Of a stretch of DNA of 64,000 nucleotides, positions 11,801 to 14,800 are shown in pieces. Made by a program: the position numbers. Position 1 is the stretch's first letter, and each line of letters opens with the position of its first letter. Location: NCBI RefSeq assembly GCF_045037415.1, contig NZ_CP173438.1; one strand, 5' to 3'. The stretch is from Escherichia coli (lineage in GTDB: Bacteria > Pseudomonadota > Gammaproteobacteria > Enterobacterales > Enterobacteriaceae).

Positions 11801-14800
11801 CATTGTGGCATTGACGCGGATATCGCCTCTCTGGGTGACGATCGCCTGGCGGCGTTGTTTAACGAAGAACTGGGTGCGGTGATTCAGGTTCGAGCTGCTG
11901 ATCGTGAAGCCGTTGAAGCGGTACTGGCACAGCATGGGCTTGCTGATTGCGTCCATTATGTTGGGCAGGCGGTTTCCGGTGACCGTTTTGTGATTACTGC
12001 CAACGGGCAGACTGTATTTAGCGAAAGCCGCACCACGCTGCGTGTCTGGTGGGCAGAAACTACCTGGCAGATGCAGCGCCTGCGTGACAACCCGGAGTGT
12101 GCCGATCAGGAACACCAGGCGAAATCAAACGACGCCGATCCGGGCCTGAATGTGAAACTGTCGTTTGATATCAACGAAGATGTGGCAGCACCGTTTATTG
12201 CCACTGGCGTGCGCCCGAAAGTTGCCGTGCTGCGTGAGCAGGGCGTGAACTCGCATGTTGAAATGGCGGCAGCTTTCCACCGTGCAGGCTTCGATGCTAT
12301 CGACGTGCATATGAGCGATCTGCTGGCTGGACGCACGGGCCTGGAGGGTTTCCACGCCCTGGTCGCGTGTGGTGGTTTCTCCTACGGTGATGTGCTGGGC
12401 GCTGGTGAAGGTTGGGCGAAGTCTATCCTGTTCAATGACCGTGTACGCGATGAGTTTGCAACCTTCTTCCATCGTCCGCAAACGCTGGCGCTGGGGGTAT
12501 GTAACGGTTGCCAGATGATGTCTAATCTGCGTGAACTGATCCCGGGTAGCGAGTTGTGGCCACGTTTTGTGCGTAACACCTCCGATCGCTTTGAAGCGCG
12601 TTTCAGTCTGGTAGAAGTAACCCAAAGCCCGTCGCTGCTGTTGCAGGGGATGGTGGGCTCGCAGATGCCGATTGCTGTGTCTCATGGTGAAGGGCGCGTG
12701 GAAGTGCGTGATGCGGCGCATCTGGCGGCACTGGAAAGCAAAGGGCTGGTGGCACTGCGCTATGTCGATAACTTCGGCAAAGTCACTGAAACCTACCCGG
12801 CTAACCCGAACGGTTCACCGAACGGTATTACGGCGGTCACGACTGAAAGTGGTCGAGTCACCATTATGATGCCGCACCCGGAACGAGTTTTCCGTACTGT
12901 CAGCAACTCCTGGCATCCGGAAAACTGGGGCGAGGATGGCCCATGGATGCGCATTTTCCGCAATGCACGTAAGCAGTTGGGGTAAGTCGTCAACCCATTG
13001 GTATTGCAGCCCGGATGAGGCATTCACGCCGCATCCGGCATTAAGCACCAACCGCTATTATGAGCTCCCAACTTCGGGAGCTTTTTTGTGTCTTTAAATC
13101 ACGACAATGGGTGGTTTGCCGTGTCGCTTTTTGGTGACACTTAACTCATTGATTTTAATATTATCTAATAAGTTTATCTTAAGTTGTCTCTTTTTAGCGA
13201 CACAGTGGCTGATTTACATTCAAATAGCGGAGAAGCCATAAACCCCTCAAAGCAGCGTATAATCAGTATGTTACCAAACTATTTTCTTTATTGGCACAGT
13301 TACTGCATAATAGTAAGCAGTGGCTCATTCACCGACTTATGTCAGCCCCTTCGGGACGTGCTACATAAAATTCGAATGACGCACAACAAGGTGCCTGCCG
13401 TCCAACTTCTGATATCAGCTTAGCTATATCAACCATCGGGCGAAACGTCGAGTTAGGCACCGCCTTATTCCATAACAAAGCCGGGTAATTCCCGGCTTTG
13501 TTGTATCTGAACTTCCCCTCGGTTAGCATCAGGCTATTCGCGTCTGACGAGAGTAACGCCTTGAAACGCTGGCCCGTTTTTCCCCGCTCATTACGACAAC
13601 TGGTAATGCTGGCATTTTTGCTGATTCTGCTGCCCCTGTTGGTGCTGGCATGGCAAGCCTGGCAAAGCCTGAATGCACTTAGCGATCAGGCGGCGCTGGT
13701 TAACCGCACTACGCTTATTGATGCCCGGCGCAGTGAAGCGATGACCAACGCGGCACTGGAGATGGAGCGCAGCTACCGTCAGTACTGCGTGCTGGACGAC
13801 CCTACGCTTGCGAAGGTTTATCAAAGCCAGCGCAAGCGTTACAGCGAAATGCTCGATGCCCACGCAGGCGTGCTGCCGGACGATAAACTCTACCAGGCAT
13901 TACGTCAGGATTTGAACAATCTGGCTCAACTTCAGTGTAACAACAGCGGTCCCGATGCTGCTGCCGCCGCGCGTCTGGAAGCCTTTGCCAGTGCCAATAC
14001 CGAAATGGTGCAGGCCACGCGCACAGTGGTGTTCTCTCGTGGGCAGCAACTTCAGCGTGAAATCGCCGAACGTGGGCAATATTTTGGTTGGCAATCGCTG
14101 GTGCTATTTCTGGTGAGTCTGGTGATGGTACTGCTTTTCACGAGGATGATTATCGGTCCGGTGAAAAATATCGAGCGCATGATCAACCGGCTGGGGGAAG
14201 GGCGTTCTCTGGGCAATAGCGTCTCGTTCAGTGGACCGAGCGAGTTACGCTCGGTTGGGCAACGTATTCTTTGGTTAAGTGAGCGCCTGTCATGGCTGGA
14301 ATCCCAACGCCATCAATTTTTAAGACATTTATCTCATGAATTAAAAACGCCACTGGCGAGTATGCGCGAGGGCACTGAATTACTGGCTGATCAGGTTGTC
14401 GGGCCGCTTACGCCAGAGCAAAAAGAGGTGGTGAGCATTCTTGATAGCAGCAGCCGCAATTTGCAAAAACTGATCGAACAACTGCTTGATTACAACCGTA
14501 AACAGGCGGACAGTGCGGTGGAACTGGAGAATGTTGAGTTAGCACCGCTGGTGGAGACATTGGTTTCTGCTCATAGCCTGCCCGCACGGGCTAAAATGAT
14601 GCATACCGACGTTGATCTCAAAGCAACAGCTTGCCTGGCGGAGCCAATGCTGCTGATGAGCGTACTGGATAATCTTTACTCCAATGCGGTGCACTACGGG
14701 GCTGAATCCGGTAACATTTGCCTTCGCAGCAGTTTACATGGTGCGCGGGTTTATATTGATGTCATCAATACAGGCACGCCCATTCCGCAAGAGGAACGCG

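What the first reader, a model, noticed from the sequence alone, without database searches (positions are those of the whole stretch)
13089..13503. glmY sRNA with overlapping sigma54/sigma70 promoters and three upstream TGTC-N10-GACA activator sites
Directly readable: three copies of TGTC-N10-GACA (13089-13106, 13122-13139, 13185-13202), a sigma54 -24/-12 element (tggcac-N5-ctgca, 13292-13307) overlapping CATAAT, then a roughly 184-nt transcript ending in a strong terminator. This fits the GlmY/GlrK-GlrR/sigma54 circuit controlling glmS. The third site is followed by ...cagtggctgatttacattc, which resembles the glmY 5' end (agtggctcattcacc), hinting at a partial ancient duplication of the 5' end.
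Basis: partly seen in the sequence, partly recalled or inferred. Interest (0 to 1): 0.45.

Follow-up and report, generated by a model that had tools for sequence, protein, structure and literature searches.

The report
Known E. coli glmY sRNA locus
This is the well-studied E. coli small RNA gene glmY with its published sigma-54/sigma-70 promoter and three GlrR activator sites; the suggested "ancient duplication" of its 5' end is a short resemblance confined to the E. coli clade and no better than chance.

Summary
There are three TGTC-N10-GACA sites, which are the only three in 64 kb. A TGGCAC-N5-CTGCA sigma-54 element overlaps CATAAT. A 184-nt RNA (13319-13502) ends in a 14-bp terminator hairpin.

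The window is E. coli, purL-glmY-glrK(qseE)-qseG-glrR. The RNA matches Rfam GlmY (147 bits against a cut-off of 33). It maps base for base onto the K-12 gene glmY (b4441), with 2 SNPs.

The promoter architecture is already published and tested (Reichenbach 2009; Goepel 2011, PMC3045617).

The one non-textbook claim is that 13203-13217 is an ancient partial duplicate of the glmY 5' end. The 13/15 match is real, but the claim does not hold:
- 7.6% of shuffled upstream regions align with glmY equally well.
- In 78 Enterobacteriaceae loci the glmY 5' end is invariant, while the segment after ABS3 is spacer-like.
- The resemblance exists only in the E. coli clade (E. albertii 5/12; other genera 1-7/12).

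Verdict: already known, low interest.

The parts
13062..13088 (+). purL terminator hairpin and T-run, directly abutting ABS1
   Evidence: Terminator-like site GAGCTCCCAACTTCGGGAGCTT followed by TTTTGTG. The purL ORF ends at 12985.
13089..13106 (.). GlrR (QseF) activator binding site ABS1, TGTCTTTAAATCACGACA
   Evidence: Exact TGTC-N10-GACA. Both half-sites are 99% conserved in 78 loci. Published as a GlrR site that is dispensable for activity.
13122..13139 (.). GlrR activator binding site ABS2, TGTCGCTTTTTGGTGACA
   Evidence: Exact motif. Half-sites are 97-99% conserved. Published as essential for the sigma-54 promoter.
13142..13154 (-). IHF site 1 (distal), AATCAATGAGTTA on the minus strand, a perfect WATCARNNNNTTR
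   Evidence: Consensus scan with 0 mismatches. Conservation is 1.39 bits/column across 78 loci. Goepel 2011 reports IHF sites flanking ABS3 and shows site 1 is essential. The coordinates are my mapping; the paper's figure could not be read.
13185..13202 (.). GlrR activator binding site ABS3, TGTCTCTTTTTAGCGACA
   Evidence: Exact motif. Most other genera have TGTT as the left half-site. Published as essential.
13203..13217 (+). 15-nt segment resembling glmY positions -1 to +14 (13/15). Spacer-like and confined to the E. coli clade; probably chance.
   Evidence: statistics; cross-species comparison.
13261..13273 (+). IHF site 2 (proximal), AATCAGTATGTTA, a perfect WATCARNNNNTTR centred near -52
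   Evidence: Consensus scan with 0 mismatches. Conservation is 1.08 bits/column, against 0.4-0.7 in the flanking spacers. Goepel 2011 describes two putative IHF sites flanking ABS3.
13292..13307 (+). Sigma-54 promoter: TGGCAC (-24 element, GG at -26/-25), N5, CTGCA (-12 element, GC at -14/-13)
   Evidence: Only match in the window. One such element is present in 79 of 80 related loci (the other lacks upstream DNA). It starts 27 nt before the GlmY start in all 13 loci checked. The 17-mer is identical to sigma-54 ChIP-seq site OS24 for glmY.
13306..13311 (+). Sigma-70 -10 hexamer CATAAT, overlapping the sigma-54 -12 element. The -35 is weak (TTCTTT at 13284-13289, 16-bp spacer).
   Evidence: Read directly from the sequence. 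CATAAT occurs at this position in 61 of 78 loci. [quoted passage not shown] The -35 assignment is my inference.
13319..13502 (+). glmY primary transcript, 184 nt. The processed active form of about 148 nt corresponds to 13319-13466.
   Evidence: Rfam RF00128 hit at 13319-13466, 147.2 bits, full model. K-12 b4441 maps here with 2 SNPs, at 13372 and 13420. Fold is -67.2 kcal/mol, z = -5.0. The 184/148-nt forms are from the review PMC4152352.
13472..13504 (+). glmY intrinsic terminator hairpin (14-bp stem, 5-nt loop)
13561..14988 (+). glrK (qseE) sensor histidine kinase gene, TTG start (context)
   Evidence: RefSeq annotation of a strain that is 100% identical over the 501-bp region compared. Histidine-kinase family hits.
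15153..15866 (+). qseG (yfhG) lipoprotein gene (context)
   Evidence: RefSeq annotation. NCBIfam QseG equivalog, 359 bits against a cut-off of 234.
15856..17190 (+). glrR (qseF), the sigma-54-dependent response regulator that binds ABS1-3 (context)
   Evidence: RefSeq annotation. NCBIfam GlrR equivalog, 979 bits against a cut-off of 763.

Best explanation
This is the E. coli glmY locus.

The 184-nt sRNA GlmY (13319-13502) is transcribed from two perfectly overlapping promoters that start at the same nucleotide. One is a sigma-54 promoter (TGGCAC-N5-CTGCA). The other is a weak sigma-70 promoter whose -10 (CATAAT) overlaps the -12 element.

The sigma-54 promoter is activated from a distance by phosphorylated GlrR (QseF), the enhancer-binding response regulator encoded about 2.3 kb downstream. 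GlrR binds the three TGTC-N10-GACA sites centred at about -221, -188 and -125. The two IHF sites flanking ABS3 bend the DNA so that the GlrR oligomer can contact the closed promoter complex.

The transcript ends at a strong hairpin terminator. It is trimmed at its 3' end to about 148 nt. That form acts as a decoy for RapZ, which protects GlmZ and so raises glmS expression.

Shown here: the sequence elements, the identity with K-12 glmY, the Rfam membership, the synteny, and the family-wide conservation of each element. Taken from the literature: GlrR, IHF and sigma-54 dependence, the shared start site, the processing, and RapZ mimicry.

The 15-nt look-alike of the 5' end at 13203-13217 is most likely a chance resemblance in fast-evolving spacer DNA. 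It is not a relic of a duplication.
For: - Rfam GlmY_tke1 hit of 147.2 bits against a gathering score of 33, covering the full model.
- The annotated K-12 glmY (b4441) aligns to 13319-13502 with 182/184 identity. The promoter differs from K-12 only at non-consensus positions.
- The region is present in 5425 of 5426 complete E. coli genomes.
- The three activator sites are the only TGTC-N10-GACA matches in 64 kb. The sigma-54 element is unique in the window and identical to the ChIP-seq-defined glmY site.
- Two zero-mismatch IHF consensus sites flank ABS3, as Goepel 2011 describes.
- In 78 Enterobacteriaceae loci, the ABS half-sites, IHF sites, sigma-54 element and CATAAT carry 1.1-1.9 bits per column, against 0.4-0.7 bits for spacers.
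- The sigma-54 element starts 27 nt before the GlmY start in all 13 loci checked.
- GlrR and QseG equivalog hits lie downstream, and RefSeq annotates qseE/qseG/glrR.
- Mechanism is taken from the literature.
Against: Nothing in the sequence argues against it. No expression data for this particular strain were examined. The sigma-70 -35 element is poor (TTCTTT), which fits the published marginal sigma-70 activity but cannot be tested here. My coordinates for the IHF sites are inferred from the consensus and conservation, because the paper's figure and supplement were unavailable.
Confidence: 0.97

Rival explanations
1. 13203-13217 is a relic of an ancient partial duplication of the glmY 5' end, for example left over from the duplication that produced glmY and glmZ or from a tandem promoter duplication.
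For: There is a 13/15 ungapped match (11/12 over the first twelve bases) starting exactly at position -1 of glmY. That specific 12-mer with at most 1 mismatch is expected only 0.25 times per 64 kb.
Against: - The similarity does not extend beyond 15 nt, and 7.6% of shuffled upstream regions reach the same local alignment score against glmY.
- Nothing promoter-like precedes the copy; ABS3 abuts it.
- Across 78 loci the true 5' end is invariant, so an ancient copy should be at least as recognisable in other lineages. Instead, matches of 9/12 or more occur only in the E. coli clade. E. albertii has 5/12 and all other genera 1-7/12, with a mode of 4.
- The family consensus for the segment is CTTTGCTTAAAAAAC at 0.69 bits per column, which is spacer-like.
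Confidence: 0.02
2. The look-alike is a recent, E. coli-clade-specific micro-duplication or a convergently selected second copy of a protein-binding motif. It sits 115 bp (about 11 helical turns) upstream of the start-site copy and would act in looping or as a decoy.
For: The start-to-start spacing of 115 bp puts both copies on the same helical face. Within the four sister Escherichia lineages the segment is 73-87% identical to the window, somewhat above the flanking spacers at 50-72%.
Against: The 15-nt sample is too small for that difference to carry weight, and whole-upstream identity is 74-79%. The match is not significant after allowing for position choice. No known factor binding CAGTGGCTNATT turned up in the papers read. 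No sister lineage is closer to the glmY 5' end than the window is.
Confidence: 0.05

Closest known systems
E. coli K-12 glmY (b4441; formerly sroF/tke1), Rfam RF00128
   Same: The position is the same between purL and glrK. The length is 184 nt with 182/184 identity. The transcription start, three stem-loops and terminator all match.
   Different: There are two SNPs, at 13372 (T for A, in an internal loop) and 13420 (T for G, in the apical region of stem-loop 2), plus G for C at -2.
GlrR(QseF)/sigma-54/IHF-dependent glmY promoter with overlapping sigma-70 promoter (Reichenbach 2009; Goepel 2011)
   Same: It has three TGTC-N10-GACA sites more than 100 bp upstream, an identical TTGGCACAGTTACTGCA core, an overlapping CATAAT -10, and two IHF consensus sites flanking ABS3.
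   Different: Only the N10 spacers of ABS1 (1 SNP) and ABS2 (2 SNPs) and a few spacer positions differ from K-12. One of these lies in the NNNN of IHF site 2. No consensus position is changed.
glmZ, the paralogous sRNA (Rfam clan CL00011)
   Same: The 5' and central stem-loops are homologous. In most Enterobacteriaceae it has the same promoter architecture.
   Different: Rfam clan competition assigns this locus to GlmY, not GlmZ. The location upstream of glrK rather than next to hemCDXY is the one specific to glmY.

Membership tests
GlmY sRNA (Rfam RF00128) | Covariance-model match above the gathering score over the full model, beating GlmZ within the clan | tested here: met
   147.2 bits against 33, model positions 1-163 of 163, at 13319-13466.
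GlmY sRNA (Rfam RF00128) | Orthologous position and sequence relative to annotated K-12 glmY | tested here: met
   b4441 maps to 13319-13502 with 182/184 identity.
GlmY sRNA (Rfam RF00128) | Conserved synteny: immediately upstream of glrK-qseG-glrR and downstream of purL | tested here: met
   The same arrangement holds in 13 of 13 other genera checked.
GlmY sRNA (Rfam RF00128) | Stable multi-stem-loop fold ending in an intrinsic terminator | tested here: met
   MFE -67.2 kcal/mol, z = -5.0, with 0 of 200 shuffles as stable; 14-bp terminator stem.
GlmY sRNA (Rfam RF00128) | 3' processing to about 148 nt and RapZ sequestration (decoy for GlmZ) | not testable with these tools
   Literature only. 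The Rfam model ends at 13466, which is 148 nt from the start and consistent with the processed form.
GlrR-activated sigma-54 promoter | -24 GG and -12 GC elements with canonical spacing, at the right distance from the start | tested here: met
   TGGCAC-N5-CTGCA with GG at -26/-25 and GC at -14/-13. The 17-mer is identical to the ChIP-seq site.
GlrR-activated sigma-54 promoter | Three TGTC-N10-GACA GlrR sites more than 100 bp upstream | tested here: met
   Sites at 13089, 13122 and 13185, centred at about -221, -188 and -125; the only three in 64 kb.
GlrR-activated sigma-54 promoter | IHF binding sites flanking ABS3 | tested here: met
   Two zero-mismatch WATCARNNNNTTR sites at 13142-13154 (-) and 13261-13273 (+), both conserved.
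GlrR-activated sigma-54 promoter | Cognate enhancer-binding protein GlrR encoded in the same locus | tested here: met
   NCBIfam GlrR equivalog, 979 bits against a cut-off of 763.
GlrR-activated sigma-54 promoter | Transcription depends on rpoN, glrR and ihf | not testable with these tools
   Published for K-12. The promoter here is identical at all consensus positions.
Overlapping sigma-70 promoter | -10 hexamer overlapping the -12 element, with a -35 at an appropriate spacing | tested here: inconclusive
   CATAAT is present and conserved in 61 of 78 loci. The -35 is only TTCTTT (2 of 6), and the consensus scan did not call this promoter. Its function is known from the literature.
Partial duplication of the glmY 5' end | Similarity beyond chance expectation | tested here: not met
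   76 of 1000 shuffles reach the observed local alignment score. P is about 0.055 for an 11/12 match anywhere.
Partial duplication of the glmY 5' end | Ancient: recognisable in other lineages that keep the invariant 5' end | tested here: not met
   Matches of 9/12 or more occur only in 5 E. coli-clade sequences. The other 73 loci score 1-7 of 12.

The most novel reading that the evidence does not exclude
The E. coli-clade-specific 15-nt direct repeat (13203-13217 and 13318-13332, 115 bp apart, on the same helical face) is a functional second copy of a start-site-proximal motif. It could be a lineage-specific binding site that links the enhancer to the promoter, or that titrates a factor. It might be connected with E. 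coli's shift towards sigma-70-dependent glmY/glmZ transcription.
Probability: 0.04. Interest if true: 0.3.

Novelty: already known. Interest (0 to 1): 0.07.

Why it matters
It matters little as a discovery.

The useful results here are three. The annotation is confirmed precisely in a non-K-12 strain whose RefSeq record carries no glmY feature. The two IHF sites are placed on coordinates. The duplication idea is closed off with a 78-species comparison.

Tried and rejected
1. I first thought that 'cagtggctgatt' (13202-13214, minus strand AATCAGCCACTGT) was the published IHF site 2. I rejected this. It has 2 mismatches in the TTR part, while perfect and conserved consensus sites exist at 13142-13154 (-) and 13261-13273 (+).
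2. I looked for an extension of the 5'-end look-alike with gapped local alignment. Nothing extends beyond the 15-mer.
3. I looked for supplementary alignments (Figure S3) of Goepel 2011 to confirm the IHF coordinates. None are held.
4. I checked whether a published QseB site (Gruber & Sperandio 2014, PMC3903284) coincides with the look-alike. The text gives no coordinates, so this is unresolved.
5. The simple promoter scan found only GTGACA-N16-TAATAT at 13134-13161, inside the enhancer region. It is a 9/12 match, and the number of promoter-like hits in the region is close to the shuffle expectation, so I did not pursue it.
6. The ORFs at 13184-13423 (+, 79 aa) and 13329-13529 (-, 66 aa) overlap the promoter and the RNA. 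I treated them as mechanical ORFs, not genes.

Full report
**What is there.**
- TGTC-N10-GACA occurs at 13089-13106, 13122-13139 and 13185-13202. A pattern search shows these are the only three matches in the 64-kb window on either strand (0.66 expected), and they fall within 114 bp.
- TGGCAC-N5-CTGCA at 13292-13307 is the only TGGCAC-N5-YTGCW in the window. Its 3' end overlaps CATAAT (13306-13311).
- Twelve bases further on, at 13319, begins a sequence that Rfam assigns to GlmY (RF00128). The hit scores 147.2 bits against a gathering score of 33 and covers the full model, at 13319-13466.

**Identity of the locus.** The 501-bp region is found in 5425 of 5426 complete E. coli genomes. It is 100% identical to strains such as SK1144 and about 97% identical to most others.
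- In K-12 MG1655 the ncRNA glmY (b4441, 184 nt) lies between purL and glrK. Aligned to the window, it maps to 13319-13502, with two SNPs inside the RNA (13372 and 13420) and one at -2.
- All other differences from K-12 in the promoter fall in the N10 spacers of ABS1 and ABS2, in spacer DNA, or in the NNNN of an IHF site. No consensus position changes.
- RefSeq annotation of the identical strain lists purL, qseE/glrK, qseG and glrR but has no glmY feature.
- NCBIfam confirms the GlrR equivalog (979 bits, cut-off 763) and the QseG equivalog.
- The RNA folds into the expected stem-loops (-67.2 kcal/mol, z = -5.0). It ends in a 14-bp hairpin at 13472-13504, dG -23.4 kcal/mol.

**What is already known.**
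- Goepel et al. 2011 (PMC3045617), citing Reichenbach et al. 2009, describe this architecture:
  - GlrR binds three TGTC-N10-GACA motifs more than 100 bp upstream of glmY. ABS2 and ABS3 are essential and ABS1 is dispensable.
[quoted passage not shown] CATAAT is the -10.
  - Two IHF-like sites flank ABS3. IHF and site 1 are essential for sigma-54 activity.
- Genome-wide sigma-54 ChIP-seq lists the glmY site as TTGGCACAGTTACTGCA, identical to window 13291-13307.
- The review PMC4152352 gives the 184-nt primary and 148-nt processed forms and the RapZ-decoy mechanism.

**IHF sites.** A consensus scan finds exactly two zero-mismatch WATCARNNNNTTR sites in the promoter region: 13142-13154 on the minus strand and 13261-13273 on the plus strand. 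They flank ABS3 as published. I could not check them against the paper's figure, because no supplement is held.

**Cross-species test.** Using GlrK as bait, I fetched 80 loci from distinct Enterobacteriaceae species, with 77-99% GlrK identity.
- All 79 loci with upstream DNA have exactly one sigma-54 element. In 13 of 13 diverse loci, Rfam GlmY starts 27 nt after the first base of that element, as in the window.
- In a 78-sequence alignment the functional elements stand out. Mean information per column:

| Element | Bits per column |
|---|---|
| ABS half-sites | 1.7-1.9 |
| TGGCAC | 1.86 |
| CTGCA | 1.64 |
| CATAAT (61 of 78 loci) | 1.64 |
| IHF site 1 | 1.39 |
| IHF site 2 | 1.08 |
| Spacers | 0.39-0.73 |
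| glmY positions -1 to +14 | 1.99 (invariant) |

**The duplication hint.** The match is real: CAGTGGCTGATTTAC against CAGTGGCTCATTCAC, which is 13/15, or 11/12 over the first twelve bases, with starts 115 bp apart. Three results argue against an ancient duplication.
- The statistics are marginal. This 15-mer is the best local alignment between the 234-nt upstream region and glmY, yet 76 of 1000 dinucleotide-preserving shuffles score as high. An 11/12 match anywhere has P of about 0.055. The 0.001 figure applies only if the position is fixed after the fact.
- The resemblance is lineage-restricted. Matches of 9/12 or more occur only in the window and four other Escherichia coli-clade genomes. 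E. albertii has 5/12, and the remaining 72 loci have 1-7 of 12 with a mode of 4. Because the true 5' end is invariant everywhere, an ancient copy should not be visible in one young clade only.
- The segment behaves like spacer. It carries 0.69 bits per column and has the family consensus CTTTGCTTAAAAAAC. Nothing promoter-like precedes it, since ABS3 abuts it.

A recent micro-duplication or a lineage-specific functional motif cannot be excluded, but nothing positive supports either.

**Verdict.** The main interpretation is correct but already known, and the duplication hint is not supported. Interest is low.

Noticed in passing
window 13018-13035: The REP-like palindromic element just after purL (about 13006-13040) carries 18 bp (AGGCATTCACGCCGCATC) that are absent from K-12 MG1655. 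This is an indel polymorphism in the purL-glmY intergenic region.
   Followed up: no
L006 (E. albertii) 1017-1231, against window 13077-13291: The 215 nt upstream of the glmY sigma-54 element are only about 60% identical between E. coli and E. albertii. That is no more than between genera, although GlrK is 96% identical. Only the ABS, IHF and sigma-54 motifs persist, so the enhancer spacer turns over very fast or was replaced in one lineage.
   Followed up: partly
window 13185-13188, and the aligned position in L003-L082: E. coli is unusual in having three perfect TGTC-N10-GACA sites; only 8 of 78 loci do. In most Enterobacteriaceae the left half-site of ABS3 is TGTT.
   Followed up: partly
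window 13126-13135: The central N10 of ABS2 is T-rich in this E. coli (GCTTTTTGGT), whereas the family consensus is A-rich (TCCAAAAGGA). The asymmetric core of the palindromic site looks flipped or rewritten in the E. coli lineage.
   Followed up: no
window 13140-13144 and 13178-13182: Two CTTAA pentamers lie 38 bp apart between ABS2 and ABS3. A QseB binding site in the glmY regulatory region is reported (PMC3903284), but no coordinates were available. The link between CTTAA and QseB rests on memory only.
   Followed up: no
window 13062-13092: The T-run of the purL terminator runs straight into the TGTC of ABS1 (GCTTTTTTGTGTC). The glmY enhancer therefore begins at the very end of the upstream transcription unit.
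   Followed up: no
window 418-632, 4044-4120, 37569-37678, 44934-45238, 58075-58166: Other Rfam hits above the gathering score elsewhere in the window are rncO (+), ohsC (-), the iscRS stability element (+), ryfA (-) and sroE (+). All are consistent with the E. coli 2.6-2.7 Mb region.
   Followed up: no
L002 (NZ_AP018784.2) 3280-3463: The RefSeq (PGAP) annotation of the 100%-identical strain has no glmY feature between purL and qseE, although the RNA is present. This is an annotation gap, not a biological difference.
   Followed up: yes
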